NCBI GenBank assembly: GCA_000002445.1
Contig: CM000208.1
Location: forward strand, 2,848,001 to 2,912,000
From: Trypanosoma brucei
Lineage: Eukaryota
Reading direction: 5' to 3'
Length of the DNA: 64,000 nucleotides
Within the stretch, counting starts at the first letter, position 1; every line of letters starts with the position of its first letter. Below are positions 5,613-32,100 of the stretch, in pieces. Under the pieces are notes generated by a model that searched no databases, was not told where the DNA came from, and worked only from the letters and a program-made list of their open reading frames with translations. The position numbers and the translations under genes were made by a program.

Positions 5613-6128
5613 GTTCCCCGTTAATTTTCTTTTTCTTTTTTTGTTATTCGAAATAGTTATATGATAATGTGATATGCTTAAAATAAAAGAAAAAAAGTAG
5701 ATCCACAAATTTAAAATTTAATTTAACTATGATTGTCGTTTTTATCTTGTGTTGATAAAAACGGGGTCGGATGGTGTTTGCGTTTTTGTATATGCCGAAT
5801 AAAACTGCAGAATATATTTATATAAAATATTTATAGTAACAAATTAGCGACTTTTCATCTCACTTCCTCCGATTCTGTTCGCTTTTTTTCGCTGTCTCGT
5901 TATTTATTTACTCATTTACTTTTTTTTTCCTCTCTCCCCTCCCTCCCCTACCCCCTTTCGTATAAAAATATAAATATATTTATAAATGTGTTAGTCTCTG
6001 CGTTTCCTTTTATTACTTTCTCTGTTTTATTTTTCATCTTTCGATGTTTTGGCGTGCAGCTGTAGGTTTTGTGTTTTTTTTATTATCATTAAACTTAATC
6101 ACTATTCTTATTTTTGTATTTTCTTTTA

Positions 6129-6152
6129 ATATATATATATATATATATATAT
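6129..6152. repeat. (AT)12 microsatellite
   Basis: Read directly from the sequence. Confidence 0.9.
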
Positions 6153-8398
6153 GTTTTAGTTACTAGTGGCTTGCTTTTCTACGTTTCTTTTTGTTTTTTT
6201 TATTTATGAGTCGGGGCGAAGGAAGCGGTGCCTTTCCTTCATTTTACCTCTGAGTTATTAATTTTTTCCCCCCATTTTCCCCCTGCTCTCCGCCTGCCAT
6301 CAGGATCTGGTTTATTATTTTAATTTTCAGCACCATCATCACCGCTATTCCCTTCTTTTTTCTTTTTTTCCTTTTTTCTTTTGACATTTTGTCATATTTT
6401 TGTTGTTTTTGTTGTTTTTGTTGTTAAAAATATGATTTGGCTTTCATGTGTGTCGGCTTCGGTTTCGTAATGAATGCATTACAACATAACCTTCTTATTG
6501 CTTTTCATGCTGGCGTTTGTTTCATTTTGTTTCTTTTTTTTTATTTTTCCTGCGTCGACCTCAATATCCAACCGTCATGTTGCACCTGAGTGGTGGATGA
6601 GGAACAGGACGGTAACAAACAGATAAAAAATAAAAATTAAAATCAACTTCAAAACTTTGTTGAGTTCCCGTTGATGTTTATAAAAATGAATGATGATGAT
6701 GATAATAATAATAATGATAACAAATGCTGTCGCTCTTGTTGTTAATATAACCATTTTTGTTATTGTTAAATTGTTAAGAGGTCAACGATGAGGCAGTGGA
6801 TGATTTTTATTCATATGAACAAATTAAGTTGTTAAAAGTGGCGCCAATGGAAAGTGATTTGAAGGTGTGAAGTAAAGAAAAAGAGAAACAACAGCGGTAA
6901 TAAATACCATTTTTTTCTTTTAAAAAAAGAAAAAAAAAGGTACATACGACATCTGAAAAGGGGGAAGGCATAATCATGATATCAGTAATAATATTAATAT
7001 TACCAACAAGGCAAGAGGCAGGGAAACAAAGGGAGAGAAGGGAGAGGAGAAACATACAAAAGGAAAAAAAAGATAATAATAATAATAACAATAACAATCA
7101 CAATAATAATAATTATTATGTGATGTCTCCTCTTCCTCCTCCGCATTCTCCTTAAATGACACAACCCCTTTATAAAAGGGGGAAAAGAAAGAAAAGAAGA
7201 ATGGTAATTGTGTTTATGTATGTGTGTTTATGAGTTGGAGGGAGGGAGGGGAAAGCGGTATATCAAATGAATAAAATGACAAACCGAAACCGAGCCAAAA
7301 CGAAAGAGGAACGTAAAAAAAAAAGGAGGAGAAATGACAGTAAAGATATGGAGTGTAATAAAACTGAATAGAATGAAACAGAGAGCAAGGAAAAAGAAAA
7401 GGAAAGGAAAAAAGACAGATTGGTAAGGACGACATTTGTTTTGAGGAGCGGCAGTGGGAAATAGCGTGAAAAAGAGAAAAAGAAAAAAAGAAAAGGGAGC
7501 GAGGCGAGTGTTGAAGTGAAATACTGTGGGGTATTTTTGGACACCACGAATGAAACAAAAAGATATGTACACTCAAACATGAAAAAAAAAAGACAAATAC
7601 ATTAAATATGAGGAATACAGAATAGAAGAGATGAATAGAAGATGCGTACCCGGGTGCTCATGACTGGTACGACATTTACATGTTTTGTTTTGTCTTTTTT
7701 AAAATAAATAAATAAATATATATATATTCATGTGGTTGGAATGTATATGGAGTGATGTGGAGGTGTAGTGGTAGTTATGCAGATGGCGAATGCTCACTCG
7801 CAGCAACTGTAATTTGTCTTATGTTTTTACTTTGTTCCTCTTTCATCCTTTTAATTTTTTGGCGAATTCAAGAAGGTGAGGGCGAAGGGAAACAAACAGC
7901 AGGAAATGGGGTGAATTTTGTTGAAAGAAAAAAAAAGTGAATAAAAAGAAGGTAGTGATGCTTACCACTATATATCAGGTTCTTTGCGTCTGATTCAATA
8001 GAAGAAACGGAGAGAAAATTGTGTACAATGTATAATTGCTTTGCATTTTTTATACGCACGCGTGATAACTTGTAGTGCCTCCCCCCTATTCTCTTTTTTT
8101 CCTTTACAAACACAACTCTCTGAACTTAAAAGGGGAAGAGTAGAGACGGAAGCGAGTGCGGAGGCGGATGGTTTTAACATCTAAATACCGTTACTCATAT
8201 TACTTGTGTGAAAGACTTCGCTTTTTTTTTTTTTGTAAAAAATATTTCTCCACCTGAGTTGTAAGTCCATGATGGAACAACGCGTGAGGTGAAAGGAACA
8301 GAGAGGAAGAAAGATAGAGTGGCGGAAACGGACGGTCTTATGATTGTTTCTTTTCCGACGAGTCTTTCACATTAATTCAATCAAATATGCATAACTGA

Positions 8399-8534: not shown

Positions 8535-9776
8535 ATGAACCGTAGTTCGAGGAACCTTGCAGAGATGCAGGATGAGATCAACCAGTTGGACGACCGTTAC
8601 AAACTTGAAAAGATAATTGGTGCGGGATCCTATGGTGTCGTCATCCGCGCGAGGGATACCACAACAAACGACCTAGTGGCCATTAAACGCGTCAATAAGG
8701 AAATATTCGAGGAAATAATCCTTGCAAAACGTATTCTTCGCGAAATCAAGCTGTTGGCACACTTTCACCACGATAATATCATTGGACTCCGTAACCTCAT
8801 CACCCCGGCCGACCGCGACAACTATGATTACTTTTATATTGTCATGGATGTAATGGAGACCGACCTGAAGCAAGTGCTCCGAACTGGCCAAAGTCTCACG
8901 GAAGGTCACATACAATATTTCATTTATCAAATCTTACATGCCCTAAACTTCATCCATTCTTCAGGTGTTATTCATCGAGACATCACCCCGGCCAACATTT
9001 TAGTCAATAAAAATTGTGATTTGAAGATATGCGACTTCGGACTTTCCAAAGAGGAGAGTGATCAAGGGGAGCACATGACAGATTATGTTACCATGCGTTG
9101 GTACCGTGCACCGGAGCTGGTGATGGAAGATAAGAGGTATTCCGCACAAATTGATGTGTGGGGAGTTGGAAGTATTCTTGGTGAGTTGCTGGGCGCCCGA
9201 CCCCTGTTTCAGGGAAAAGACCGTGTGAACCAACTGGACAAAATCATTGATGTTATCGGAACTCCATCTGAAGAGGATATAAATTCCATCGGGTCCACTG
9301 CGGCGCAGAAGTATTTAAAAAAGAAGTCATTTCGTCCTGCACCCGATTGGGCCTCCGTATATCCCAGAGCGAGTCCAGAGGCGCTGGACTTATTGCGGCG
9401 GATGTTGGTGTTCCATCCAGACAAGCGCATAACTGTCGCTGAAGCATTAAAACATCCCTTCCTTAGGGATCTGTACGAGGAATCCGATGTACAGGTTAGT
9501 ATCCAGCACTTTAACTTTGATGAAACACAACATAAAACAATTCAGGAGGTAAAGTGGGCGGTGTATGATGAGAGTGTGGCATTTCACAAAAACCACCCCC
9601 GGACAGCACCTAGGCCACAACAACAACAACATTCTGCGCAACAACCCGCCGCTGCTGCATCTCTTCCAACTGTTGATATCGCTGGAGAGTGGCGGTCAGC
9701 GCAACAAACAATTGAGCGGGGCGAGGAGGAATGTGGTGCGGAGCAGTTCGACAAATATGTGGGTTCCGTTGAGTGA
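8535..9776 (+). CDS. Mitogen-activated protein kinase (TDY activation-loop type) with a Gln-rich C-terminal extension
   Basis: 413 aa. Gly-loop GAGSYGVV; VAIK-like VAIKRV; catalytic loop HRDITPANIL; DFG motif; activation-loop T-D-Y in HMTDYVTMRWYRAPE; MAPK-typical GTPSEEDI segment and a CD-domain-like C-terminal region. Confidence 0.9.
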   Translation: MNRSSRNLAEMQDEINQLDDRYKLEKIIGAGSYGVVIRARDTTTNDLVAIKRVNKEIFEEIILAKRILREIKLLAHFHHDNIIGLRNLITPADRDNYDYFYIVMDVMETDLKQVLRTGQSLTEGHIQYFIYQILHALNFIHSSGVIHRDITPANILVNKNCDLKICDFGLSKEESDQGEHMTDYVTMRWYRAPELVMEDKRYSAQIDVWGVGSILGELLGARPLFQGKDRVNQLDKIIDVIGTPSEEDINSIGSTAAQKYLKKKSFRPAPDWASVYPRASPEALDLLRRMLVFHPDKRITVAEALKHPFLRDLYEESDVQVSIQHFNFDETQHKTIQEVKWAVYDESVAFHKNHPRTAPRPQQQQHSAQQPAAAASLPTVDIAGEWRSAQQTIERGEEECGAEQFDKYVGSVE

Positions 9777-19800: not shown

Positions 19801-21289
19801 GTTACAGCGCTGTTCATCATCGATTCTTAATTCAATGGAACGCCTTGAAGGGGAACAGCGGCGGCACCATCCCACACCGATTCATGCCGTCTGGATTCAT
19901 GCCCCGCGTGATTGCTACCGGTTCTCACGTAAGTCAGGCATATGGAGTATGCACTTGGATGATTGGAAATTAACCGTACTTAACAGGCTGTATGAACTAA
20001 CGGTATACGACCTCTCTATGCAATCTTTCGTCGGAAAAGACAATGTTAAAGGGAGTGTTGTGTTCGCACCACTACTAACACTGAGCCCATATTTAAGTCA
20101 TCCGTTTCTGGGTGTCCCAATGAAAGATGAGGAGAAGTGGCTTTGTTCGAAGATACGTAGACGGATGCGGGCGGAAACGGAACGAACTGCCTCTGGATGG
20201 GAAATTGTGTGGCACAATGGAGTGCTGGTTGTGCTTGGAGTGTCAAAAGGATGGAGGTACTCCGTTTTTGACTTTCATGCAAGGTTTAGTGACCCCGATG
20301 TGAAAAACTTTTCAGACCCAGCGCCAGTGGCATATTCAGCTAAGCGAGACGAGTACTATGAAAGTATTTCTGGTTCTCAAATGTTAGTGCCTCTCGATTT
20401 TGGAAAAAAAGGGACTCACAAGCTAGCGCTGCCCCGTCACTTCCCACTCCTTAGGCGGGACGAGAATATGTATTTGGTGAGGCTTTCGGTAAGGGCCGTC
20501 ACATTGGTGTTTCTATGCGTGGCGTTAATACTGGTGATGCTGCGTATCGATGGATATATCACAGCGCCGCATTGGGTCGCAGCCGCTGCTTACGCTCCGT
20601 ATGCACTAGACGTCATCGCCAACTCATTCACAGACTATGATAGATATTACATAGTCCGTAGTGACGTGCCATTTTACATTCGTCTTTTCTCTGACCTGCT
20701 TCTCTATATCGTGTTCCCCGTTGTTTTCACTCTGCGTCGTGATTTGTACCCGAGATTCAACACGCCGTGGATCGTCCTGACAATACCGTTGTGTGTTGCC
20801 ATCGCTATGAAGTCACTGCCGGACATTTATATTAATATGCACCCCGGGCAGCGGCACTGGTTTGCGTGGGTTACTACATCGCGACTGTTGAAGGCGCTGT
20901 ACGAATGGCTGATAATTTCGACAATCGTCCTTCTAGCTCTGTATTTCGATGGTCCTTCTGGTCGTGATCCACTTGCACCGAAGTTCCACATTGCTCTGGC
21001 CTTAACTCCGGTAATGTTGTTAATATTAATATTGAAGGTGAAATCTGCTGCTGCCTTTGTCCGAACTGGAAACTGGAGGCTTTATCTTACTTGCTTATTT
21101 CCATTACTTCTGTTGGCACTTCAGGTGATGCTGTTCGTTGGTGAGTTCAAGGACTACTATGAATATATTGGTAAACCGATCACCACGCCTAAACCGTCGG
21201 CGTCTCAGTCCCTTTTCATTCTTCCCTTTTCTGTTATTGTGGTGGCGATTTACAAGGGATATACCGTGGCTTCAGTTCTTTGTAGGTAG
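16808..21289 (+). CDS. Large hypothetical protein with an N-terminal F-box-like motif and a C-terminal polytopic membrane domain
   Basis: 1493 aa. LPPQLLFTIMSYLLPEGMLKMRLVCRTFNDVF fits the F-box consensus LPxEiLxxIfsyLxxxdLxxxxxVCkxW. The last 300 aa or so contain about six long hydrophobic helices (for example LVFLCVALILVMLRI, WIVLTIPLCVAIAM, LIISTIVLLALYF, LTPVMLLILIL, LFPLLLLALQVMLFV). Confidence 0.7.
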   Translation: MRGSCSEGALSGGCLPSRATTNPLGGPSSAGSLEMAEMLGAEAFYGLPILCSLWSERKLPKRRGARGRGQHWSCASGESGKKRNCNLPPQLLFTIMSYLLPEGMLKMRLVCRTFNDVFLTYSVQETFAVSLPRSFMEPTVGFQTLSGLIKEREAVLRNKERSWSKWLSAYVVMWLRKEANNDTISKATVEGQALWVQLQRSRVLCRLAMEEWLGHLSDCRRAQYNIRRNWFNPTNLGCTLRTGVPPVFLPDGTLCINDPPDVVKFYAKRDRGLPLCEDALSHKTVSRKNDSLKDMWAPFEELAFPAYVCLMYYDPYVDALHISLASGTCTLWRVNSIGIEAAAHRTASEADFESSSHQLWRKTDLPCRSIPSRIEVVGNYTISSEFLACSVTMTRDGIKLEDYRWSEDEVMSKVRLFGEGANGDTSRIIVASCGRDVSASLLPRATAGDAHLTKEDVAVLNILQNQLSNASNSVNRPRAGPTRGEASANESHRPSATNSVDGINGGHNDVESGNNGGNIISIAGGPGNGAFELLVDDIEHEGVGTAASEVTANHLEGERGDRITDFRPSSITINSTERIDIKRHVFGVFNEQARLMCTVAITHEVAVFILTQSGCRTLGVNYSGGIHAASVLSSPVFKRCESPTAEHPCEEGDALFLCASQHNVLICQQKLYRRLEEVEILVIHQNHREAATSRGALRPSEQRYGTWYFLKGYSYHSPPMILRPLVEVSSLMLQAFVQPRPLLPEHLEWLSKRSNEGTCKVDCQRQREEHLPPYKSSWWCPQRDGHPYFHKPFVMFISKFVGYLLAGCDCTSGGYQEVSTDDREHFHSVPLLDGIAVKRLHPSAVALSPSHAFFVLGMENGSILMVSPSCRKCDQAKDGQGGCTTDAQVNGAHLIEQLDTISIPEGGEGYLASREAPQLLVAGEDLHEEGADEGESSSSSEDEAAHPRSQHPHTSHLYRTTIISNRVRGSARQKRNLRSFTPQQLFGCAFHEDPYISALQRCSSSILNSMERLEGEQRRHHPTPIHAVWIHAPRDCYRFSRKSGIWSMHLDDWKLTVLNRLYELTVYDLSMQSFVGKDNVKGSVVFAPLLTLSPYLSHPFLGVPMKDEEKWLCSKIRRRMRAETERTASGWEIVWHNGVLVVLGVSKGWRYSVFDFHARFSDPDVKNFSDPAPVAYSAKRDEYYESISGSQMLVPLDFGKKGTHKLALPRHFPLLRRDENMYLVRLSVRAVTLVFLCVALILVMLRIDGYITAPHWVAAAAYAPYALDVIANSFTDYDRYYIVRSDVPFYIRLFSDLLLYIVFPVVFTLRRDLYPRFNTPWIVLTIPLCVAIAMKSLPDIYINMHPGQRHWFAWVTTSRLLKALYEWLIISTIVLLALYFDGPSGRDPLAPKFHIALALTPVMLLILILKVKSAAAFVRTGNWRLYLTCLFPLLLLALQVMLFVGEFKDYYEYIGKPITTPKPSASQSLFILPFSVIVVAIYKGYTVASVLCR

Positions 21290-22481
21290 CGAGGAGGTGA
21301 CGGTGACGAGATAACACCTTCTTGATGTTTTTTTTCCCCAGCATGTGGGGTTCCTGCTTTCGTTGGTTTTGGTTTTTGCAAAGAAAAATAAAATATTAAC
21401 ATTTGTTTGTGTGTAGAAACGTACATGCATACGGAAGTATACGATTATATTTGAATGCACAAGTATATAGGTTAGTACGTGTAGTATATGTAGTTACTGA
21501 GGAAGGATCAATTGTTGCGTGTGTTGGCACTTGCGAACAACTTTTTTTGTTTTTGTTTTCTGCCTTGCTAGGGGTTCTGGGAAATAAACTGTGCAGGGTA
21601 TTTGATGCTGTGTTTTTGTCGCATACTTTTGGTTTGATCTGCTTGTCCTGGATTTGTGCTGTGGTACTTCTTTCATATCATGTACTGGGGGAGAGGGGGT
21701 GAAGCTGGGTTTTTTTGCTCTATTTTTTTTTTCATTTTCCTTGTCATATTTCGTTCGAAGCGGTTACTTCGCCGTTCAACTGTTTTTTAACGCGTTTCCT
21801 CTCCTCGACCGCGGAATCCGTGAGTTGTTTATTTGCGTCTTGAGGTGTTGGTGTGCGGTGGAGAACCCACTTATCGATTTTTAACTCTTTTTTTGTTTTT
21901 GTCCACTGCTCCCATTTTACCAGCATCCACAGCTGTTCGGGAGTATGGACGGGGGTTTAAAATCCCTGTTCTTTAATTGCATCCCCTTTCTTTCTTTTCT
22001 GTTGTATTACTTCTTACCGCGCACCAATATTTGCCTTTGTAATGTCTTTTATTTTTCTCTTTCAACCCATTCGTCAGGGATGTTGATGTCATCTCTCTTT
22101 CTCGATGTGCTCGTCGTCCTTCCCTTTTTATTACTATTATTACTATTTCCTTTTCCCCAAATTTCCCCTTTTTTGTTTTGTTCGCTCGCTTACGAGTTTC
22201 GTACGGGAAAGAGGGAATTCAGGGATGGGAGACGGCACGTAACTGGAAAAGACTCGACGAATGGTATGGACCATGTAACAGTTCGCACACCCATATGGGG
22301 GAACCCTAAAAGGGCGCATCGCGTGCGTCTGCATGTTCCATCCTTATTTTCTTTTTTTGTTTCTTTTGTTTTTCCTACCTTTTAACTCAATCTCCCCTAT
22401 TAACACGCATTTTACCCCTTCCCCCGTCTCTCTCTCTCTCTTGCAGCACTTGTTCCCTCAGTACATGCAAGTGTTTCCCCT

Positions 22482-22492
22482 CCCCCCCCCCC
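22482..22492. repeat. C11 homopolymer (G11 on the minus strand)
   Basis: Read directly; a second C12 run lies at 22581-22592. Confidence 0.8.
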
Positions 22493-23450
22493 ACTTTCCC
22501 ATCGTACAGGTGGAGACGAAGAAGGAAATTTTGTTTGAGCGCCACTAAACTGTTTCTGTGGTTTCCTTGTTTTGGGATTTCCCCCCCCCCCCAATCACAT
22601 AATTCCAAACCGATTTTCCTCTTTCATTTTTTTTCTACATTGCGGTTTCGCTCCCACTTGCATTTTCTTTCCATTCAGTAACTCTCCACCCACCAAAAAG
22701 TCCCCCTTTATATGCCAGTTTACCTTTAGTTCCCATTTTTGTTGATTGCTTTTTTTTTTTAAAAAAAATTGTTATTATCATTTCCTTTTGACCTCTAATT
22801 ATATTTGAGTGCGTTTGTTCTTAGGTATATTTCTTCCATGGAAAACGCTGGAGAATGAGAAGGAGGGGACGCGTTTGTATGTTTTGACTCGAAGGAAGGG
22901 GGGACGGGGGAACGGAGATGTAACGGCTATTTGTCATCGCATATGTTTTTTTTTTCTTAAGCGGGATAATATGTCACGAAATAGAAGGAGCCCGGAGGTC
23001 GTTTGCACCGCCGGTGTGGTGGTAAGCAGTAGATGAAAGTTTTAATGTTAATATATTGAAGTTGTGAGTCTGAACGGGGAAAACTGATTCCAGCGGTGCA
23101 CCCTACCACTGGTTGCATGAAGTGTAAGCGATTACAGGAAAATAAAAAAAGACAGGTGGAAGGACAATCTTTCGACAAAGCAGAAGGGGAAAAAGTGATG
23201 GGGGTCATATTTATCACTTCTCTCTTCTCTCCTCACACCTTCTTTGTCAAAACTTTAGGAGGTAAAGCATCCTTCCTGACGATCACTTAAACGGATTCTT
23301 GGCCTTGTGGAAGCAGTAGCAGAAAATCAACAAGAGGAATATACATATATATACCAAAGGAAGAAGGCTCTCCGCTTCTAATTGTATTAGTGCTGTAATC
23401 ACACTGAGTTTTTGCACCGTTTCCGCACTCCAGCACAAACGATATTTCGA

Positions 23451-24233
23451 ATGTCTGTTTCCCCCAAGCGGAGCCTGCAGGCGTCACATTCCTCCACTTT
23501 TGTCGGAAAGACGGTGCCGTCATATGTACTTTCACCAGTTATTGAGCAGCACCATCTGCTTTGGCAGTGGCGCACGGTGCTTTGGCGGAAGCGGCTTCAT
23601 GCCGTGCCTTTTCTTCTTCACTGGGCACCGGGCGTCCCTGCAAAACAGCCCTTTCTTCACCACACAACTGCTGAACTTATTCTCACATCAGGTCAAGAGG
23701 TGGCATCGGCACCTGCAGCAGCAAACTACCGGAATTCACCGCACCGTTTCGGCGAGCTTATTGTTCCATCACCCGCTGGAGGTCTTCATGCAACGATTTC
23801 AGGACAAGCGGGAGAAGTACACCCCCTGACACGATGGGTAGACGATTTGTTCGATTTCCCACAGCAGAGTGCGATACCAGGTGAGGCAGTGGTTAATCAT
23901 GAAGAGAGCATAAGCTCTACCGATTCATGGAGACACGTGCCGTCAATTTATCACAATGTTGTTGGATGTGGTTTGGCGGAACTAATCTTGGCCGTTGACC
24001 GGCTTGCAGCATTGCTTGCACGGCGACACATAACATTGGCTAATGCGTGCTGGGCTGTTTTAGCTGACAGCAAGGCGGATCTCAAACCGTTTTTGCGGTA
24101 CAGTGCCTTGGATATTGAGCGAGAAGTACTCGTAATGGCAAAGGCACATGAAATGATAAATGTTTCACTGGGCGATGCCATGAGGCGACCGCTTTTAACA
24201 ATTGAAGATTATCCATCGATGGCCGGATGGTAG
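23451..24233 (+). CDS. Hypothetical protein with an Arg-rich N-terminus (possible organellar targeting)
   Basis: The track ORF 23412..24233 starts at TTG; the first ATG is 13 codons downstream (MSVSPKRSLQASHSS...). Complex composition; no named domain recognised. Confidence 0.45.
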   Translation: MSVSPKRSLQASHSSTFVGKTVPSYVLSPVIEQHHLLWQWRTVLWRKRLHAVPFLLHWAPGVPAKQPFLHHTTAELILTSGQEVASAPAAANYRNSPHRFGELIVPSPAGGLHATISGQAGEVHPLTRWVDDLFDFPQQSAIPGEAVVNHEESISSTDSWRHVPSIYHNVVGCGLAELILAVDRLAALLARRHITLANACWAVLADSKADLKPFLRYSALDIEREVLVMAKAHEMINVSLGDAMRRPLLTIEDYPSMAGW

Positions 24234-25502
24234 TGGCGAGTGTTTACAACAGTGTCGGGGTCGTGTCTGATGATTGTCTCGCTCATATTAACCTCTTGGG
24301 TGCGCTTATTGTTTCCCTCTCTCCATCAACTACTATTTCATATTGTCTTCATTGACTTTTGGTCAAAGTTTGTCAGTTTGTTTTTATTTTGTTTTCCGGA
24401 AAGGAAATATACGAATGCCTGTGGAGGTGTGTGTGTGTATGTGTACGTCCTTTTCTTTCTTAACATCACCATGCTGCAACTCTGGAAAATGAGTATGGTT
24501 GCAAGCGATTACTTTTATTCGTTTCTGTTTTCCGTTTCCTCACGGATGTGTGTCAGCTCAAAACCTCCCCATTTCCTATCGGTTTGAGCGTTGTAAATTC
24601 TTATCGTCCCGTGTGTTCCTTTTTAGTTTGAAGTCACAGCACTCTCCGTGGTCGTTTTGTTCCTTCGCTTCATTAATTTTTTTCATTTTTTTTTTTGGAT
24701 TGTTTGGATCCGCACAAGGCAAGAGGCAAATTGAAAATGCAAACATGGGAGGGTGTGGTACCTTCCACGCAACACGAGACTCTGTAGTTGGTGTTCGAAC
24801 GATTTAGTCAATCTCTATAGTTATTACGTACTTTTTCCCCTTTCCATCCGATGTCTTTTGCTGTCGTTGTTTTCAAAAATACAAAAGGACAGAATTATAG
24901 GTTCAATAACGGAAGGAAAGTTTGTGAATGCAGCAAAGGCAAGATATGTGAACGAGCTTCAACCACAGAGGTGCTATAAATTTAGGAGGCTGCAGGGCGC
25001 AAGCTGGCGCTTTCTCTTTCCTAAGAGGAGAAGGGAGCGCTCCATGTGACGCCAAACAAAAAGTTCATTCACTCCCGTTCGCATCCTGTGTGATTCCCTT
25101 TCTAACAAAACCGTGCACGTGATGAGAGTATGTTCTTTCTATATACTGATTTGTCCATTGAAGTACACAGATACATATTCATAGACTGTCGTTTCCCTGA
25201 CCGCATTTCCACCGGTTTTCCCCCTCTTTGGATGGATTGATTCGATAAATCTTTCTGTTGTGGTCTTTTCCACACCCCTGCGTTACATGTACCATGCAGC
25301 TTGCTGTTGAGCTGCATCGAAGTGGGATGAAACACTTGAGAACTGTTGTGGCTTACGTACCTTTAGCTGCGTACTTCTCGCTTCTCACTACTCATTCCTC
25401 CGTATCTTCTGCTTTACCTCTCGCTCTTTAAAATCCACACTGCCAGAAACAACGAAACCGTTTAAGCGGGACAAACTAATTAATTTTGTGGGAATTGCCA
25501 GT

Positions 25503-25853
25503 ATGCCACCGCGGGCTCGACTTTTTGTTGGGCAGCTAAACTTTGACGCAACCGAAGATGACATATATGCACTTTTTGATTTCTACGGGAAAGCCCTTCA
25601 TGTCAATATACTTCGTGACAAGGAGACACAAAAAAGCAAAGGCAGCGCCTTCGTGGAATATGGAAGTACGGAGGAGGCAGATTGTGCCATTCTCGCGCTT
25701 CACAACCGCTACAATATGGAGCGCGAAAAACCGCTTCAAGTGTCTTATTGTAACAAGTCCGAGTTGATATCCGAGTTTGGCAGGGATCATGCCTCGAAGT
25801 TACACGACGAGAACCCTGCGAACCCCGCCCCACCACAACGTGTTCAACGGTGA
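25503..25853 (+). CDS. Single-RRM RNA-binding protein, tandem copy 1
   Basis: The track ORF starts at GTG; the ATG gives MPPRARLFVGQLNF.... RNP2 is LFVGQL and RNP1 is KGSAFVEY; total length 116 aa. Confidence 0.8.
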   Translation: MPPRARLFVGQLNFDATEDDIYALFDFYGKALHVNILRDKETQKSKGSAFVEYGSTEEADCAILALHNRYNMEREKPLQVSYCNKSELISEFGRDHASKLHDENPANPAPPQRVQR

Positions 25854-26539
25854 CTAGCTGAGGGAGTAGCTTATATTGTTAATATATGAATAGCAGTTGA
25901 GATATACCGCTAATGACTATGTACTTGGTTCTGGAATTTGACGATATATTTTCCCAATTGTAGCGCTTCTGCTTCTGTGGTTGGATTTCTTATCTTATAT
26001 TTGCGTGATATCACTATCTTAATCGTGAGGAGGGCTAATCTTCCGGCGTTGAGATGGGTACTTGTGTTATCGATGCATGCTGCGGTTACTCCTCACCAGT
26101 TGCTAACAAATAACACCGCGGAACAGAAACAATGATCGACCTTTTTCTTTCCTCCTGTACATGGGAATTAGACTGCATGTAATGGGTTTAATGTTGAATC
26201 TTGTACGTGTCTCTGTGTAGGAGGGCGGTGTTCGAAAGAGATTTGCTCCTCTAACAACACATATATGTGTTTTTCTCGTTCTAAAATCTTTCTGTTGTGG
26301 TCTTTTCCACACCCCTGCGTTACATGTACCATGCAGCTTGCTGTTGAGCTGCATCGAAGTGGGATGAAACACTTGAGAACTGTTGTGGCTTACGTACCTT
26401 TAGCTGCGTACTTCTCGCTTCTCACTACTCATTCCTCCGTATCTTCTGCTTTACCTCTCGCTCTTTAAAATCCACACTGCCAGAAACAACGAAACCGTTT
26501 AAGCGGGACAAACTAATTAATTTTGTGAGAATTGCCAGT

Positions 26540-26890
26540 ATGCCACCGCGGGCTCGACTTTTTGTTGGGCAGCTAAACTTTAACGCAACCGAAGATGACA
26601 TATATGCACTTTTTGATTTCTACGGTGATGTGCTGCACGTTAATATACTTCGTGACAAGGACACACGAAAAAGCAAAGGCAGCGCCTTCGTGGAATATGG
26701 AAGCACGGTGGAAGCGGACTTCGCCATCCTCGGACTTCACAACCGTTGCAACACGGGACACAGAAAACGACTTCAGGTGTCTTATTGTAACAAGTCCGAG
26801 TTAATATCAGATTTTGGAAGGGATCATGCCTCGAAGTTACACGACGAGAATCCTGTGAACCCCGCCCCACCACAACGTGTGCAACGTTGA
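26540..26890 (+). CDS. Single-RRM RNA-binding protein, tandem copy 2 (diverged paralog)
   Basis: Same architecture as copy 1, with about 16 of 116 residues different; the differences cluster in residues 56-77 (EADCAILALHNRYNMEREKPL versus EADFAILGLHNRCNTGHRKRL). Confidence 0.8.
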   Translation: MPPRARLFVGQLNFNATEDDIYALFDFYGDVLHVNILRDKDTRKSKGSAFVEYGSTVEADFAILGLHNRCNTGHRKRLQVSYCNKSELISDFGRDHASKLHDENPVNPAPPQRVQR

Positions 26891-27692
26891 TTAGCTGAGG
26901 GAAGTGCGACTTTTTTCACTTGGTATTGCTCTTTTTTTTTTTGTGGAAGTGAACTTCGTGTGCTAAACGGCTGTTATCACTCGCTTACGGGCGTGGGCGG
27001 AAAATACTGAAGGCAGCCCGCGCCACCAAACTTGGGGGGGAGCAACGCTGCAAACTATCGGGTTGGTTTTATTGGGTGTGTTTACAGTCCATTGCGCACT
27101 AAAAGTTGCTGGTGTGTATGCTTGTGGAGAGTACAGCTCATTATTAAATGATGCCACTGCATTGCTGGTGCTTTTGTATGCACGCGTCTGTATGTGGAAG
27201 TTGTTTTATGTGGATAAAACAAGGGAAGGAATCCCCTATTATGTACAAACGAACCGTGACTTTCTTGGTTGCTGAAATGGTCAACATAAATTGTTGAATT
27301 TTTTTTGTTCCTATTCTCCTAACTAACACACTACTGTGTGAAAGGATGAACTATACTTTAGATGGTTTTTATTACACCCTTGTGGTTGAAGAATGGCTGA
27401 CCTGTGTGGTATGCATGTCACGGGTATCACGGGCTTCAATTGGCACACATAATAGTCATTTTATGCAAGAGTCGAACTTAGTTACTCTTTCCTTATCTCC
27501 ACCCTGTCACCGCGTTTTTCATCATTTGTTTTTTTTTTGGCTGCATCCTGGTCGTTACCGTTGATGCCAAAGGTAAGCACCAAAGAAAATAGGACACAAC
27601 TAACCGCGTGTATTTACCAGCACACATACACTTCGCGCAGAGGGGTCAATTTTCTGGATTTGTACTAGACTCAAAACAGGTAAGTTAGACTC

Positions 27693-28046
27693 ATGTCGCA
27701 ACGGGGTTCCGCTGTCCATCGCACTCGTTCTCCCGATACGACAGATGATCGTGACTGCACTCGCCTTCGAACGGAGGGGTGGTCTGAAGATGTTAGTTTG
27801 TACAAAACACATCCCTTCACTTTAGCCTCGCAGGGAACCACGAATGGGGATGGCCTCACTGAAGGGGAACTCTACATTCAGTTGTGCAAGACTCCAGGCG
27901 GTAGTGAGCGACTTCCACCAGGATGGGAGAAGGTGTTATACGAAGGGGCGGTTGTTTACCTCGATCACATTTCTCGTGAAGCTCATGAAGTGCCGCCGTG
28001 GGAAGTGTGGCGTAAGCGGAGTGGTGCTGCAGCTTCATCTGCTTGA
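27693..28046 (+). CDS. Small WW-domain protein
   Basis: 117 aa. LPPGWEKVLYEGAVVYLDHISREAHEVPPWEVW fits the WW consensus LPxGWE...G..YYxNHxT..T.W..P. Confidence 0.65.
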   Translation: MSQRGSAVHRTRSPDTTDDRDCTRLRTEGWSEDVSLYKTHPFTLASQGTTNGDGLTEGELYIQLCKTPGGSERLPPGWEKVLYEGAVVYLDHISREAHEVPPWEVWRKRSGAAASSA

Positions 28047-28398
28047 TGTTTGATTCCTACCTTACTTCGTGAAGTGCACACAAGTTTCTTGTTTTTTCAC
28101 ATGTATTTCGGGTGGGAATTGCGTGACGTGACGCATATAAACTCCGGCTGAGGCGATTAATGTCGTTTTAGGTAATCGTCATGAAGGTTTCCATAGCATG
28201 GATCCGTGAATTTTCTTTCCGTGAGCCCTCATTTGCAGTGTTTATTAACCATATGTGGCCACCTCATGATGAAGCTGCTTCACCTTCTTCCCTTCAAACA
28301 TGCCGGTCTCCACCTTTTCACCCACTCATTTCCCGTATTGCGGTGGTGTTGTCATCTTTGAGCGACGTGCCGTGGAATGTGTATGTGTGAGGAAGATT

Positions 28399-28418
28399 AT
28401 ATATATATATATATATAT
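28399..28418. repeat. (AT)10 microsatellite
   Basis: Read directly. Confidence 0.9.
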
Positions 28419-29039
28419 TTCCAGCGGGTTACACATAGATGGGAATGAGAAGAATGAAAATTAAAAGAGAGAGAGAAAGCGATGCTCAGCCACGTAGTTT
28501 GTTGGGTGCAGTCCGACTTGGAGAGAGAGGCATGTAAAGGAGAAGAATCTCATACTTATTTTTTTTTTGCTTGTGCGTGGTCCAAGAGAGCACAGCACAA
28601 CACTTACAACCGGGGGTGCTTCTTTTTTCGTCTTTTTGATTTAGCTTTGCACTGCCCACTTGTTTGAGAGGGGAGCGAAAGAATATATTCGTATATATGC
28701 ATACACGTTGTGGAAGATTGGGAAATCCGATGCGGTGGTAATGTTCTTATTATTATTATTATAAATATTATGGATTTGAGGGACGCACCATCATATTCAA
28801 ATGAGTGAATTTAGAAAAAAAAAAACGCCGATGCGCACCTCTCTAAGCCACTGTTCTCGTGTACGTATTGGGAAACGATCGGTTAGTTCCAATGCGCTGG
28901 TATTCAACGAGTCACACATCATTTTGGTAAGACATGAGGTTGCATCGCCCACTAGTCGTTTCAACACTGTTGTTCCCTTTCTGTTTTTGTTGTGCCCATA
29001 TTTTACTGATTTTGTCACTGCCATCACCACCATCTGATG

Positions 29040-29092
29040 TATATATATATATATATATATGTTTGCCTGTTTGCCTGTTTGTTTGTTTGTTT
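29040..29092. repeat. (TA)10 followed by (GCCTGTTT)/(GTTT)n repeats just upstream of the 2192-aa gene
   Basis: tatatatatatatatatatat gtttgcctgtttgcctgtttgtttgtttgtttg read directly. Confidence 0.85.
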
Positions 29093-29140
29093 GTGCATGC
29101 TGTTATGAATTTTTTCAGTATTACTGTTTAGAGCGCAAGC

Positions 29141-32100
29141 ATGAACTTTAGGAAACTAACAAAATTTTGGAGAAGGCAAACGAGCCAGGTTGATGTTGTC
29201 TCGGGGAGTGAAAAGTGTACAAGCGGTGATTATTGTGATACATTCGTTGGGCTTTTTCGAGGACAGCAGGGGAAAAACTTTGTTTCGTCGCTAGAAAGCG
29301 GACAAGCTGCTCTTGAATATATTAAAAATGTTACGGAGCGAGGGCAGATGACCAGCGGCACCCTCTCATCCTCGACAGACGACGAGCTGAAGCGAGAACG
29401 CGAAGAGACCCTCGTTGCTCTTGAGTTATGTGTGATTACGCATCCACAGTTTGTCAACACAGACGTGAACTCCAGCAACATTGAGAGCGGGGAAAGCGAG
29501 GGAGTTTCTCCTTCAACCACCGAGAAGGTTGCACACGAGGCTGCAACGAACACTACTGGGGAAGAAGTGACCATCACAATTAGTGAAACAAGTAATGGTA
29601 CCGCTGCTGCGAGTGCCAATACACGCAACGGCGAAGCAGCTACCCCAGTCGCACATTATACACAAGAGGAGCGTAGGGCTTTGCTGTACGAATTGGTCAG
29701 CATCATGCTTAGCATTGATCGTTTTCTTTACATAAATAAAATTAGGGAGGAAATACAGCTTCAGCACCCCTCAATGTTGGTGACCCCACCACCCACAACC
29801 ACCATCGGTACGGAATTGCTGGAGACCGCTCCATCGACGAATGCCACAGATGAAAAGAGTGTTGATTTTGAAAGCGATCCGTACGTGGCGCCGCCATCCA
29901 TTTCATCCACTGGAAGGGAGTCGGTACCAGACCTCGCGTCATGCCAATCAAACCCAGGCGACCCTGATGGAGATATTTCAAATCGAAGTTTGAACAGAGC
30001 AGAAGAGGTAGTGGCAAGAATTCAAGCGATCACCACTTGGATTGTCCTGCAGAAGGTACTGCGGAGTCAGTTGGAGTTGCACCGGGAAAGAGCCACCCAG
30101 CCAAATAGTCCCACAATAGAAGCAGGAGCATCGGAAGCAGAGTATGTGTTGCACTTTGAAGAACTGTGGATCGACACGGCTCCTCTACGGTGGGAGCAAG
30201 TGGTGGAAGAACTCAAGGAGGCCCTTGGCATGCGACGGAAGGAAATTGCAGAGGCCATTATATCTAGTTGGATACTGAACAATCATGCAGGTCATGAGCT
30301 CCTACAGTGTGTTATGCTGGAATTTTGTTACGGTGCCAACTTCGAGCACAAGACTGCGGTTGATGTGGATACCACACGACCGGAAATTATTTTCATGCCG
30401 GCAATCGGGAGCAATGACAGTGATGGTCAAAACCAGTCGCTGCAGCAAACTGAGGCGTTGACTGACACGACTCCCGAAGCACATGGCGGAGATGATGTCG
30501 TTCCAGATGACATGGTGGAAAAGGTGAAGAAAACATTCAAACAGTGTATTGTAACGCCATGGGTCTGCTATTTGGAGCAATCGTTGCAAGTATTCCAACT
30601 GGAGGGGGGCAATAGACCTGGTAAAGTGTTGGACACAACAAACGTTTCCCTCTGTTGCATGGTCAGTGCGTATGCGATTTGCTCAAAGCACTGGGAGGAA
30701 GTGAAAAGAAGGGACATCTTTCATTTTTTGGAAAAATTGTGGTGCGAACAACATGTTTCTACGCAGGTGGAGCGGATGAAGTGTGTTAGCACTGGGACAG
30801 AGGAAGATACCAAGCCTGAAAGCGAGGAAGTTGAGTGCGTGGACAGTTGTTCACCGCCTCAGGCATTGGACGGCGACAGCGATGGTACTGTTACGGTTGG
30901 TCACTGCGCTGAGAACGATAAATATGCTTTTTTGTGTGGGGATGAGTTCATATTGCCAGTGATGCTGCACGAGGCGTGGGCGACGGTGTTATGCATTCGT
31001 GCTCATCAGTGCCTTAACGGCGCTGGCCAGCCACTCTCTGAAGCGGTCAGACATGTTCGTCGGGCTTGCAGTTTGCCCATACAAAGATTTCCCTTTTGGT
31101 ATTGCCAAAGGGCTCATGAAGCTATCGTACATGCGTATGTTGCTGCCGGAAACTATGCCGGTGCGATTGAGATTGGACGAGCAAATGTAAACAGAAGCGA
31201 GCGATATTGTGCAACCCATGGCCACTGCCTTGCTAGCCGGGTGAATTACCTGGAGTCGTTGCAACTGCTGGCTGAGATACAGGCTGTGTACCCTGGTAGT
31301 ACTTCATTTACCAGCACTGTGCAAACGGTCCTACAACAGGCGGTACTCTGCGAGCAAGCACTGAAGGACGTTTTGCCTGTCTATATCAACGGGGTGGCCA
31401 GCCGTTATGCCGCTTTGCGGAGGAACATCTATCGAGTGAAGCTCATGGTTCTAAAGTTAAGTTGGCGTGTTCACTATCGTCTCGCTGAGGTCACACGCGC
31501 TAACATGTACTTTCACCAGTACATCCACCTTTTAACGTGTAGAAAAGTACCGGGGCGATTGGAAGAGCAATACAACGCGTGGAAAGAAAGGGGGGAACAA
31601 CTTCTCGGAGTGGAGCACAACTCAGCTGTTTGCTTTTTCGCGCGGGCGGTTGACTGTGCTAAAAAAATTGTCAGCTCCGTTTCACGGACTGCACCAACAG
31701 TGGATTCCACTGCAAATTGTGCATGTTCCCCAGTGACATTACCGTGTTTGGCAGCAGCAGATGCCACAGACACCGTGCATCAGGAGATAGAACTTAATAA
31801 AATGGAGGCGGAAGGCGAACGCAATCTTGCACTTGCCTATATCGAACAGGCGGACCACGAAGTCAACGTGAAGAAGCGGCGGCAACAGCTTAGCAATGCC
31901 GTAAACTGTGCTTACGCAGCGCAAGGTATTTTGCACCGTTGGACATCAAAATTAAAGGCTGTCATCCCCTCTACGCTAATGATTGGTGTCGCCTCTGGCA
32001 TTGTTGTTACAACCAAAGCGCTGCTTCGTCTCGGACAGCCGCGGAAGGCAGCACTTCTGTTGGAACCACTAATCGAAGAGAGGTCGAACTCCAGCTCCGT

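What the first reader, a model, noticed from the sequence alone, without database searches (positions are those of the whole stretch)
25247..26905. Tandem RRM-protein gene pair with a sharp gene-conversion-like boundary about 30 codons into the CDS
The two single-RRM genes share an almost identical 5' flank and first 90 nt or so of CDS (about 350 nt with only a few substitutions). At the codon for Gly29-Lys30 similarity drops abruptly, and about 16 of the remaining 87 residues differ. The changes cluster in the loop and helix region facing RNP1 (EADCAILALHNRYNMEREKPL versus EADFAILGLHNRCNTGHRKRL), while the RNP1 and RNP2 motifs stay intact. The pattern suggests recent homogenisation of the 5' UTR and N-terminus, with identical processing signals and possibly co-regulation, alongside maintained or diversifying divergence of the RNA-recognition surface. 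The two 3' flanks are unrelated, so the 3' UTRs are different.
Basis: seen in the sequence. Interest (0 to 1): 0.55.

Follow-up and report, generated by a model that had tools for sequence, protein, structure and literature searches.

The report
RBP7A/RBP7B pair: patchy gene conversion
These are the known Trypanosoma brucei quorum-sensing genes RBP7A and RBP7B, whose front halves are kept nearly identical by ongoing gene conversion while RBP7B retains an old block of unusual substitutions; this is a clear but ordinary case of mosaic concerted evolution in a trypanosome tandem gene pair.

Summary
The window is T. b. brucei TREU927 chromosome 10. The two genes are RBP7A (25503-25853) and RBP7B (26540-26890), downstream of Tb927.10.12080 and the grumpy/snoGRUMPY lncRNA.

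The copies differ at 2 of 342 nt in 25247-25588, then at 41 of 277 nt. The change point is at 25589, the third base of Gly29 (0/5000 permutations).

Gene conversion is strongly supported. Six sites in the 5' block (plus two more against equiperdum alone) differ between TREU927 and T. b. equiperdum/gambiense yet are shared by both paralogues within each genome. Beyond the boundary, orthologues match and paralogues do not. The rest is itself a patchwork: codons 29-34 diverged, 35-54 homogenised, 55-79 strongly diverged (pS 0.70 over codons 56-79), 80-116 intermediate.

Nearly all replacements are on RBP7B (9-13 against 0-2). Four hit residues invariant in the 29 other kinetoplastid homologues (Y70C, M72T, R74H, P77R). 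They lie in helix alpha2 and the alpha2-beta4 loop, not in RNP1/RNP2.

Pairwise dN/dS is 0.1-0.2, so diversifying selection is not shown. Published data show RBP7A rising and RBP7B falling during stumpy formation, which argues against co-regulation.

Patchy conversion also occurs at this locus in T. theileri, T. melophagium and T. grayi, and probably T. vivax. The genes and the phenomenon are known; this particular mosaic was not described in the literature I could search.

The parts
25503..25853 (+). RBP7A (Tb927.10.12090) CDS, 116 aa single-RRM protein. It keeps the ancestral family sequence.
   Evidence: Exact protein match to XP_823414 / Q389D4. The published RBP7A-specific reverse primer matches 25696-25718. 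Pfam RRM_1 scores 62.1 bits. AF2 model has pLDDT 86.8.
26540..26890 (+). RBP7B (Tb927.10.12100) CDS, 116 aa single-RRM protein. This is the derived copy.
   Evidence: Exact protein match to XP_823415, TREU927 only. The published RBP7B primers match 26578-26597 and 26731-26748. Pfam RRM_1 scores 61.2 bits. Between 9 and 13 replacements fall on this lineage, against 0-2 on RBP7A.
25247..25588 (+). Copy A of the homogenised block: 256 nt of upstream sequence (grumpy poly(A) region, polypyrimidine tracts, predicted splice acceptor, 5' UTR) plus codons 1-29.
   Evidence: 2 mismatches in 342 nt against 26284-26625. Six sites that differ between TREU927 and the other two genomes are shared by A and B within each genome. 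There is no similarity to the upstream regions of four other species.
26284..26625 (+). Copy B of the homogenised block.
   Evidence: Same evidence as for copy A.
25589..25604 (+). Diverged patch 1 (partner 26626-26641), codons 29-34. All six codons differ. It forms the sharp boundary of the 5' tract.
   Evidence: 8 mismatches in 16 nt, including K30D and A31V. B keeps V31 as do 27 of 29 homologues. A shares A31 with T. congolense.
25605..25666 (+). Second homogenised patch (partner 26642-26703), codons 35-54: beta2 end, beta2-beta3 loop and RNP1.
   Evidence: 2 mismatches in 62 nt and 0 synonymous differences in 12 synonymous sites (P about 0.002 at the gene's pS). Both differences are polymorphic among strains, and the gambiense B copy is identical to A here.
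25667..25739 (+). Divergence island (partner 26704-26776), codons 55-79: helix alpha2 and the alpha2-beta4 loop.
   Evidence: 22 mismatches in 73 nt. Over codons 56-79, pS is 0.70 and pN is 0.18. The replacements are E57V, C61F, A65G, Y70C, M72T, E73G, R74H, E75R and P77R, all on RBP7B. Y70, M72, R74 and P77 are invariant in the 29 other homologues. The island is fixed in all three T. brucei genomes.
25740..25865 (+). Moderately diverged 3' third (partner 26777-26902): codons 80-116, the stop codon and 12 nt of 3' UTR. This is the end of the homology.
   Evidence: 9 mismatches in 126 nt; dS 0.30, dN 0.023. A and B share residues here that T. congolense lacks: D95, S98, D102, P105, Q112, V114.
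25866..26283 (+). RBP7A-specific downstream sequence (3' UTR / intergenic), unrelated to the sequence downstream of RBP7B.
   Evidence: Local alignment score is no better than shuffles.
26903..27692 (+). RBP7B-specific downstream sequence (3' UTR / intergenic), up to the conserved small WW-like protein gene.
   Evidence: The WW-like gene is syntenic in all species examined.
24882..25318 (+). grumpy lncRNA (longest form). Its 3' end and poly(A) sites reach into the first ~70 nt of the shared block.
   Evidence: The over-expression primers match 24882-24905 and 25300-25318. Published isoforms are 359, 397 and 432 nt. The reverse primer has a second perfect site at 26337-26355.
25115..25200 (+). 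snoGRUMPY C/D box snoRNA (TB10Cs'2C1). It lies just upstream of the shared block and is not duplicated.
   Evidence: The published primers match 25115-25135 and 25180-25199. It is single-copy in the window. Homologous snoRNAs lie inside the RBP7 cluster in four other species.
25370..25446 (+). Predicted main polypyrimidine tract and first downstream AG (25445-25446), i.e. the putative spliced-leader acceptor. The identical partner is at 26407-26483.
   Evidence: Read directly from the sequence and inferred from the general rules of trypanosome trans-splicing. Not verified with RNA data.

Best explanation
The pair is T. brucei RBP7A/RBP7B, two tandem single-RRM regulators of quorum-sensing (stumpy) differentiation.

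They are old tandem duplicates of the 'type-1' RBP7 gene, and non-allelic gene conversion repeatedly overwrites them in short tracts. The most recent tract, still active within T. brucei, covers the RNA-processing module upstream of the start codon and the first 29 codons. That module holds the poly(A) region of the upstream transcript, the polypyrimidine tracts, the splice acceptor and the 5' UTR. The tract stops where identity collapses, at codons 29-34.

A second short tract covers the RNP1 region (codons 35-54). An older one covers the 3' third.

Codons 55-79 (helix alpha2 and the alpha2-beta4 loop) have escaped conversion for a long time. There RBP7B alone accumulated nine replacements, four at positions invariant across the family.

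The unrelated 3' UTRs give the two mRNAs different regulation.

Shown here: the identity of the genes, the mosaic, the within-species concerted evolution of the 5' block, the asymmetry of replacements, and the recurrence of patchy conversion in other species.

Inferred: the island persists either because selection removes conversions that erase RBP7B-specific residues, or because about 30% mismatch blocks heteroduplex formation. It is also inferred that the island alters a protein or RNA contact surface.
For: Identity of the genes:
- Exact protein matches and paralogue-specific published primers.

Mosaic:
- 2/342 against 41/277 mismatches, change point at 25589, 0/5000 permutations.
- Five patches with 0 synonymous differences in codons 1-28 and 35-54, but pS of 0.70 in codons 56-79.
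- Synonymous heterogeneity between the island and its flanks has p = 0.006.

Conversion:
- In the 5' block, TREU927 A and B share G, C, G, C, C, C at -214, -142, -134, -133, -94 and -67, where equiperdum and gambiense A and B share A, T, C, T, T, T.
- Within the block, paralogues differ by 2-5 and 927-versus-other orthologues by 7-10. Beyond the boundary, paralogues differ by 41-44 and orthologues by 1-5.
- The non-coding block is not conserved in other species, so constraint cannot explain the 255/256 identity.

Recurrence:
- T. theileri has 100% tracts at -97..+22 and +113..+262.
- T. melophagium has one at +130..+280.
- T. grayi type-1 copies are about 96% identical over -294..+357.
- T. 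vivax type-1 copies are 98.8% identical over 408 nt.
- T. congolense has two consecutive accessions with an identical protein.

Asymmetry:
- Relative-rate counts are 0-2 on A against 9-13 on B (p = 0.0002-0.04). Four family-invariant residues are changed only in B.

RBP7B is functional:
- Ectopic RBP7B restores differentiation in the RBP7AB null (PMC6034907).

General precedent:
- Jackson 2007 (PMC1855330).
Against: - No T. congolense DNA could be obtained. The age of the island relative to the brucei-congolense split therefore rests on one residue (A31/V31) and on an unsaturated pS of 0.50.
- With only three T. brucei genomes, the direction and number of conversion events cannot be resolved.
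- The gambiense copies differ at -198 and -190 in a criss-cross way. This could be patchy conversion or haplotype mixing in the assembly.
- Selection maintaining the island is not demonstrated. dN/dS is below 1 and the MK-type test gives p = 0.22.
- An ectopic donor for the island elsewhere in the T. brucei genome was not excluded at the DNA level.
Confidence: 0.85

Rival explanations
1. There was no conversion. The 5' flank, 5' UTR and first 29 codons are identical because of very strong purifying selection on processing or translation signals, while the rest drifts.
For: The block does contain polypyrimidine tracts, a probable splice acceptor and the 5' UTR. RNP2 lies in the coding part.
Against: - There are 0 synonymous differences in 19 synonymous sites, and 255/256 non-coding identity.
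- The same non-coding block differs at 8-10 sites between strains, so it is free to change. The changes are shared by both paralogues.
- It has no detectable conservation in four other Trypanosoma species.
Confidence: 0.03
2. Assembly artefact: the near-identical block is a collapsed or copied repeat in the reference.
For: Near-identical tandem sequence of about 340 nt is the kind of feature that short-read assemblies can mis-handle.
Against: - The same two-copy structure and spacing occurs in three assemblies from different subspecies, each with its own variants.
- B-specific D15N lies inside the block in all three.
- Paralogue-specific qPCR assays are published.
- A 342-nt repeat is shorter than Sanger or long reads.
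Confidence: 0.02
3. RBP7B is a recently duplicated copy that is degenerating under relaxed constraint or as a pseudogene. The diverged part reflects fast decay, not age.
For: Nearly all replacements are on B, four at invariant family positions. Polymorphism within RBP7B is mostly non-synonymous, 4 N to 1 S.
Against: - Synonymous divergence is high (pS 0.5-0.7) exactly where replacements are, and zero in the 5' block. Mutation rate cannot change so sharply over a few bases.
- The ORF is intact in three subspecies.
- The B-lineage omega is roughly 0.25.
- Ectopic RBP7B drives arrest and rescues the double null.
Confidence: 0.07
4. The island in RBP7B was imported from a different, more distant RRM gene by ectopic conversion or a chimeric crossover, rather than diverging in place.
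For: Divergence is about 30% over 73 nt, flanked by much more similar sequence. Ectopic conversion is documented for some T. brucei arrays.
Against: - None of the 29 family members found carries the B-specific residues.
- The island lacks the type-2 paralogue signature (R64, S/C65, F/Y71).
- Its pS to all other species' genes is as saturated as that of RBP7A.
- No similar sequence lies elsewhere in the 64-kb window.
Confidence: 0.05

Closest known systems
Mosaic concerted evolution in T. brucei tandem gene arrays (Jackson 2007, BMC Evol Biol 7:54; PMC1855330)
   Same: Both involve tandem duplicates in a polycistronic unit. Gene conversion tracts include UTRs and can span the start codon. In some arrays the non-coding parts are invariant while the CDS diverges. 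Different regions of the repeat have different histories.
   Different: The RBP7 pair is not named in the main text of that survey; its supplementary files were not checked. Here conversion is additionally shown within the species, from three subspecies genomes. The locus also shows lineage-specific tract positions in other Trypanosoma species.
RBP7A/RBP7B as described in the quorum-sensing literature (Mony et al. 2014; PMC4403954; PMC6034907; PMC9200285)
   Same: These are the same two genes, in the same position downstream of Tb927.10.12080 and grumpy. They are required for stumpy formation.
   Different: The literature calls them 'two almost identical genes' and mostly treats them as one function. 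The sequence shows 16 amino-acid differences, nearly all derived in RBP7B, four of them at family-invariant residues. The 3' UTRs are unrelated.
Partial gene conversion between young tandem duplicates with a sharp tract boundary, e.g. human G-gamma/A-gamma globin genes (cited from my own knowledge, not tested here)
   Same: There is a near-identical 5' portion including upstream sequence, an abrupt boundary inside the gene, and older divergence 3' of it.
   Different: The organism and gene-expression system differ. Here the converted block is a trans-splicing/polyadenylation module rather than a promoter. No simple-sequence hotspot is seen at the boundary.
CELF/Bruno-like RRM1 (CUGBP1 RRM1, PDB 3nnh)
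   Same: It is the best structural match of the RBP7A model (Foldseek E 1e-8, rmsd 1.3 A over 83 columns, 32% identity). It is a canonical beta-alpha-beta-beta-alpha-beta RRM with RNP1 and RNP2.
   Different: RBP7 is a single-RRM protein of 116 aa with an extra predicted C-terminal helix at 91-103. Its RNA targets are unknown.

Membership tests
T. brucei RBP7A/RBP7B (Tb927.10.12090 / Tb927.10.12100) | Protein sequences identical to the database entries for these genes | tested here: met
   Exact look-up: RBP7A matches XP_823414 / EAN78586 and is also identical in DAL972. RBP7B matches XP_823415 / EAN78587, TREU927 only.
T. brucei RBP7A/RBP7B (Tb927.10.12090 / Tb927.10.12100) | Paralogue-specific published primers and the neighbouring genes (Tb927.10.12080, grumpy, snoGRUMPY) in the published order | tested here: met
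   All 19 primer sequences from PMC9200285 match perfectly, in the expected order and strand.
RNA recognition motif proteins (Pfam PF00076) | Profile score above the curated cut-off, with RNP1 and RNP2 motifs present | tested here: met
   RRM_1 scores 62.1 bits (A) and 61.2 bits (B) against a cut-off of 20.7. LFVGQL and KGSAFVEY are identical in both copies.
RNA recognition motif proteins (Pfam PF00076) | beta1-alpha1-beta2-beta3-alpha2-beta4 fold | tested here: met
   The AF2 model of RBP7A has pLDDT 86.8 with elements E5-10, H18-25, E31-38, E45-53, H56-66 and E79-82. The top PDB matches are all RRMs. RBP7B was not modelled.
RNA recognition motif proteins (Pfam PF00076) | Binds RNA | not testable with these tools
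   The papers read report no binding data. They say the proteins are 'predicted to bind RNA'.
Concerted evolution by non-allelic gene conversion | A tract of near-identity with abrupt boundaries inside otherwise diverged paralogues, covering synonymous and non-coding sites | tested here: met
   2/342 against 41/277 mismatches with the change point at 25589. 0 synonymous differences in codons 1-28 and 35-54.
Concerted evolution by non-allelic gene conversion | Inside the tract, paralogues within a genome are more alike than orthologues between lineages. Outside it, the reverse holds. | tested here: met
   5' block: paralogues differ by 2-5, and TREU927 differs from the equiperdum/gambiense orthologues by 7-10, with six fully shared lineage-specific variants. 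3' part: paralogues differ by 41-44 and orthologues by 1-5.
Concerted evolution by non-allelic gene conversion | Different segments of the gene give different relationships among species | tested here: inconclusive
   Species-specific clustering of type-1 copies and lineage-specific tracts are seen.
Diversifying (positive) selection on the diverged region | dN/dS above 1, or an excess of fixed replacements in an MK-type test | tested here: not met
   Omega is 0.10 for codons 56-79 and 0.16 for codons 30-116. The MK-type table is 15N:22S fixed against 5N:2S polymorphic, p = 0.22, and in the direction of relaxed constraint. Only a rate acceleration on RBP7B is shown.

The most novel reading that the evidence does not exclude
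RBP7B is a T. brucei-specific neofunctionalised paralogue. Elsewhere in the genus the two type-1 RBP7 copies are kept near-identical by conversion (T. vivax, T. grayi, T. congolense). Only in T. brucei, the species that makes morphological stumpy forms, has one copy escaped conversion over helix alpha2 and the alpha2-beta4 loop. It has replaced four residues invariant across kinetoplastids and acquired an unrelated 3' UTR with opposite developmental regulation. Selection would then protect this island against the conversion that still sweeps the 5' half. RBP7A and RBP7B would have distinct partners or targets in quorum sensing rather than being 'almost identical' and redundant.
Probability: 0.3. 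Interest if true: 0.55.

Novelty: new member of a known kind. Interest (0 to 1): 0.3.

Why it matters
RBP7A and RBP7B are central regulators of slender-to-stumpy differentiation. They are usually knocked down, knocked out and discussed as one 'almost identical' unit.

The sequence shows that they share a homogenised front end but differ in three respects:
- a conserved-family surface (alpha2 and the alpha2-beta4 loop);
- their 3' UTRs;
- their expression, according to published data.

This gives a concrete, testable reason to separate their functions, for example by single knock-outs, island-swap alleles and CLIP.

It also has practical consequences. Reagents aimed at the 5' UTR, the first 86 nt of the CDS or the 3' end of grumpy cannot tell the copies apart.

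As evolution it is a textbook example, not a new principle.

Tried and rejected
1. grumpy as a decayed copy of the lost 'type-2' RBP7 paralogue. tblastn of four type-2 proteins against 24234-25502 and 25854-26539 gave only chance-level hits. The positional argument remains, but there is no sequence evidence.
2. Rfam scan of 20000-30000 at E <= 1 gave no hit, although the published snoGRUMPY snoRNA lies there.
3. T. congolense DNA. The exact-protein look-up found no contig, so there is no DNA-level outgroup.
4. Residual homology of the 3' flanks, or between the upstream flank and the A-B spacer. None was found.
5. Positive selection. Pairwise NG86 and an MK-type table gave no signal.
6. Deep conservation of the 5' non-coding block in T. 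vivax, T. grayi, T. theileri and T. melophagium. None was found.
7. A second snoGRUMPY copy between RBP7A and RBP7B. None was found.
8. Surface mapping of RBP7B-specific residues on model coordinates. Coordinates are not exposed to scripts, so only secondary-structure assignment was possible.
9. The Mony et al. 2014 paper could not be read; it is not held in the library.
Full report
**What is there**

The region holds two 351-nt ORFs on the + strand, at 25503-25853 and 26540-26890. Each encodes a 116-aa single-RRM protein.

Exact-sequence look-up identifies them as the T. b. brucei TREU927 proteins XP_823414 and XP_823415, called RBP7 in the T. b. gambiense annotation. All 19 primer sequences published for this locus by Guegan et al. 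2022 (PMC9200285) match the window perfectly and in the expected order:
- the Tb927.10.12080 start codon at 23451;
- grumpy lncRNA at 24882-25318;
- snoGRUMPY at 25115-25200;
- the RBP7A-specific reverse primer at 25696-25718;
- the RBP7B-specific primers at 26578-26597 and 26731-26748.

The pair is therefore RBP7A (Tb927.10.12090) and RBP7B (Tb927.10.12100). These genes are required for quorum-sensing-induced stumpy formation.

**The observation**

At an offset of 1037 nt the two units align without gaps from 25247/26284 to 25865/26902.
- The first 342 nt (256 nt upstream plus codons 1-29) carry 2 mismatches: 25491 in the 5' UTR and 25545, which gives D15N.
- The next 277 nt carry 41 mismatches.
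- Fisher p is 2.7e-13.
- The maximum-likelihood change point is exactly at 25589, the third base of Gly29. None of 5000 permutations reaches the observed likelihood ratio.
- The quoted peptides are correct and the RNP1/RNP2 motifs are identical.
- The count should be 15 of the last 87 residues, 16 in all.
- The sequences upstream of 25247/26284 and downstream of 25865/26902 are unrelated; their local alignment scores equal those of shuffles.

**Not an artefact, and not constraint**

The same two-copy structure with the same spacing is present in the T. b. equiperdum (L001) and T. b. gambiense DAL972 (L007) assemblies.

Comparing the six units gives the decisive result. In the 5' block, TREU927 A and B both carry G, C, G, C, C, C at -214, -142, -134, -133, -94 and -67. 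Both copies in equiperdum and gambiense carry A, T, C, T, T, T at these sites.

| Region | Paralogues within a genome | Orthologues between genomes |
|---|---|---|
| 5' block (-256..+86) | 2-5 differences | 7-10 (TREU927 vs the other two) |
| Beyond the boundary | 41-44 differences | 1-5 |

Lineage-specific variants shared by both paralogues are the signature of non-allelic gene conversion after the lineages split. So conversion is recent and probably ongoing.

The non-coding block shows no detectable similarity to the corresponding regions of T. vivax, T. grayi, T. theileri or T. melophagium, although the CDS aligns at about 70%. Purifying selection cannot therefore explain 255/256 identity.

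**The rest is a mosaic too**

| Codons | Pattern |
|---|---|
| 1-28 | 0 synonymous differences in 19 synonymous sites |
| 29-34 | All six codons differ (8 of 16 nt) |
| 35-54 (RNP1 region) | 0 synonymous differences in 12 sites (P about 0.002). The two replacements are polymorphic among strains, and gambiense RBP7B is identical to RBP7A here |
| 55-79 | 17 of 25 codons differ. Over codons 56-79 pS is 0.70 |
| 80-116 | 8 of 37 codons differ, dS 0.30 |

Synonymous divergence is significantly higher in the island than in its flanks (p = 0.006). The strata therefore differ in age, not only in constraint.

The simplest reading is several short conversion tracts of different ages around a core that has not been converted for a long time. 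The sharp boundary at Gly29/Lys30 is where a recent tract meets a cluster of eight mismatches.

**Direction of change**

An alignment of 31 family members from Trypanosoma, Leishmania, Phytomonas, Strigomonas, Angomonas and unnamed metagenomic sequences shows that RBP7A keeps the family sequence and RBP7B is the derived copy.
- With six different type-1 outgroups, 0-2 replacements fall on RBP7A and 9-13 on RBP7B (p = 0.0002-0.04).
- Y70C, M72T, R74H and P77R change residues that are invariant in all 29 other sequences.
- RBP7B keeps V31, as do 27 of 29 homologues. RBP7A shares the derived A31 with T. congolense. This is a single-site hint that the island may predate the brucei-congolense split.
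- In the 3' third, A and B share several residues that T. congolense lacks, so that part coalesces within the T. brucei lineage.

Pairwise dN/dS is 0.10-0.22 in every segment. An MK-type table is not significant and leans toward relaxed constraint. Diversifying selection is therefore not shown; an acceleration on the RBP7B lineage is.

RBP7B is not a pseudogene:
- the ORF is intact in three subspecies;
- its RRM_1 score equals that of RBP7A;
- ectopic RBP7B alone causes arrest and restores differentiation to the RBP7AB null (PMC6034907).

**Where the changes sit**

The AlphaFold model of RBP7A (pLDDT 86.8) is a canonical RRM with an extra C-terminal helix:
- beta1, residues 5-10;
- alpha1, 18-25;
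- beta2, 31-38;
- beta3, 45-53;
- alpha2, 56-66;
- loop, 67-78;
- beta4, 79-82;
- extra helix, 91-103.

Its best solved match is CUGBP1/CELF1 RRM1.

The RBP7B-specific residues fall as follows:
- 57, 61 and 65, spaced i, i+4, i+8 along alpha2;
- 70, 72-75 and 77, in the alpha2-beta4 loop;
- 30-31, at the start of beta2;
- 41 and 43, in the beta2-beta3 loop.

From general knowledge of RRMs, alpha2 lies on the face opposite the RNA-binding sheet, and the alpha2-beta4 loop lies at the sheet edge. A protein-contact surface is at least as likely.

**What the shared block contains**

The published grumpy isoforms are 359, 397 and 432 nt. Together with the primer positions, this places grumpy's poly(A) sites at about 25245-25318, at the start of the block.

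The block then holds two polypyrimidine tracts. The first AG after the long tract is at 25445-25446, which predicts a 56-nt 5' UTR; this is inference from trans-splicing rules. The homogenised unit is thus the whole inter-gene RNA-processing module plus 29 codons.

Identical 5' UTRs do not mean co-regulation here. RBP7A mRNA rises and RBP7B mRNA falls during stumpy formation. That is consistent with the unrelated 3' UTRs, which are the usual site of control in trypanosomes.

**Comparative context**

The locus is syntenic across the genus. The order is: a Tb927.10.12080 orthologue, a 'type-2' RRM gene (IRAIF..GHVLSVN..FGW), one or two 'type-1' genes, then a small WW-like protein.

| Species | Type-2 | Type-1 copies | Identity of the type-1 pair |
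|---|---|---|---|
| T. vivax | present | two | 98.8% over 408 nt |
| T. grayi | present | two | about 96% over -294..+357 |
| T. theileri, T. melophagium | present | one | not applicable |
| T. congolense | none found (protein hits only) | two consecutive accessions | identical protein |
| T. brucei | none | two (RBP7A, RBP7B) | mosaic described above |

Patchy conversion recurs with different tracts:
- T. theileri type-2/type-1 share 100% tracts at -97..+22 and +113..+262, around an island at codons ~18-37.
- T. melophagium has one tract, at +130..+280.
- T. vivax type-2/type-1 show none.

T. brucei is the only species examined in which a type-1 copy has escaped homogenisation.

**Comparison with what is known**

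Jackson 2007 (PMC1855330) documented that T. brucei tandem arrays evolve in concert with gene conversion tracts that include UTRs and can span the start codon. Some arrays have invariant non-coding parts with divergent CDS, and different regions of a repeat have different histories. The RBP7 pair is a further example.

No paper in the searchable library links RBP7 with gene conversion beyond two general reviews. The quorum-sensing literature calls the genes 'almost identical'.

**Verdict**

- The conversion interpretation is supported and strengthened.
- The ideas of co-regulation, of diversifying selection and of an RNA-surface location are not supported.
- It is a new, well-documented member of a known kind.
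- It has moderate practical value for people working on RBP7, and a plausible but unproven neofunctionalisation story for RBP7B.

Noticed in passing
window 24234-25100, compared with L002 45-410, L004 4498-4860, L005 4779-5144 and L006 6001-6360: T. vivax, T. grayi, T. theileri and T. melophagium carry a second, old RBP7 paralogue ('type-2', signature IRAIF..GHVLSVN..FGW) between the Tb927.10.12080 orthologue and the type-1 gene(s). T. brucei has no such gene; the 5' part of the grumpy lncRNA occupies that position. No RRM remnant is detectable there.
   Followed up: partly
window 25115-25200; L004 ~5640-5718; L005 ~6640-6719; L006 ~8720-8802 and ~9625-9706; L002 seven copies between 826 and 2241: A C/D snoRNA homologous to snoGRUMPY lies inside the RBP7 cluster in all five species. 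It has a C box TGATGA and a conserved 3' guide plus D box, CATGAACTGTCGTTTC.CTGA. In T. grayi it forms arrays with 145-nt spacing upstream of each type-1 copy. The 5' half has diverged in T. brucei and T. vivax. Rfam gives no hit for it.
   Followed up: partly
L003 8369-8716 (T. vivax): There is an unannotated second type-1 RBP7 copy, 98.8% identical over 408 nt to the gene at 6001-6357. It has a 1-nt deletion in an A-run after codon 5. This is either a frameshifted pseudogene or a homopolymer error in the assembly.
   Followed up: partly
window 25251-25271 / 26288-26308; 25300-25318 / 26337-26355; 25515-25535 / 26552-26572: Three published primers each have two perfect binding sites because they fall in the duplicated block: the grumpy II reverse, the grumpy over-expression reverse and the RBP7A forward. 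Specificity of these assays rests on the partner primer only.
   Followed up: yes
window 27693-28046: A small 117-aa protein gene with a WW-like motif (LPPGWEKV.Y.G..VYLDHI.REAHEV.PWEVW) is conserved and syntenic downstream of the RBP7 genes in T. grayi, T. melophagium and T. theileri. It has no Pfam hit.
   Followed up: no
L007 -198 and -190 relative to the ATGs at 2964 and 4001 (T. b. gambiense): At these two sites the A and B copies of gambiense carry C,T and T,C respectively. TREU927 has T,T in both copies and equiperdum has C,C in both. This criss-cross pattern suggests either very short conversion patches or mixing of haplotypes in the assembly.
   Followed up: no
window 24882-25318: A 2023 review (PMC9815240) describes the grumpy/snoGRUMPY lncRNA as lying between Tb927.10.12090 and Tb927.10.12100. 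The primer positions place it between Tb927.10.12080 and Tb927.10.12090.
   Followed up: yes
window 1-64000: GC skew is positive in almost every 2-kb bin. The cumulative skew rises from 0.09 to 2.33 across the window. The genes examined at 23451-28046 are all on the + strand.
   Followed up: no
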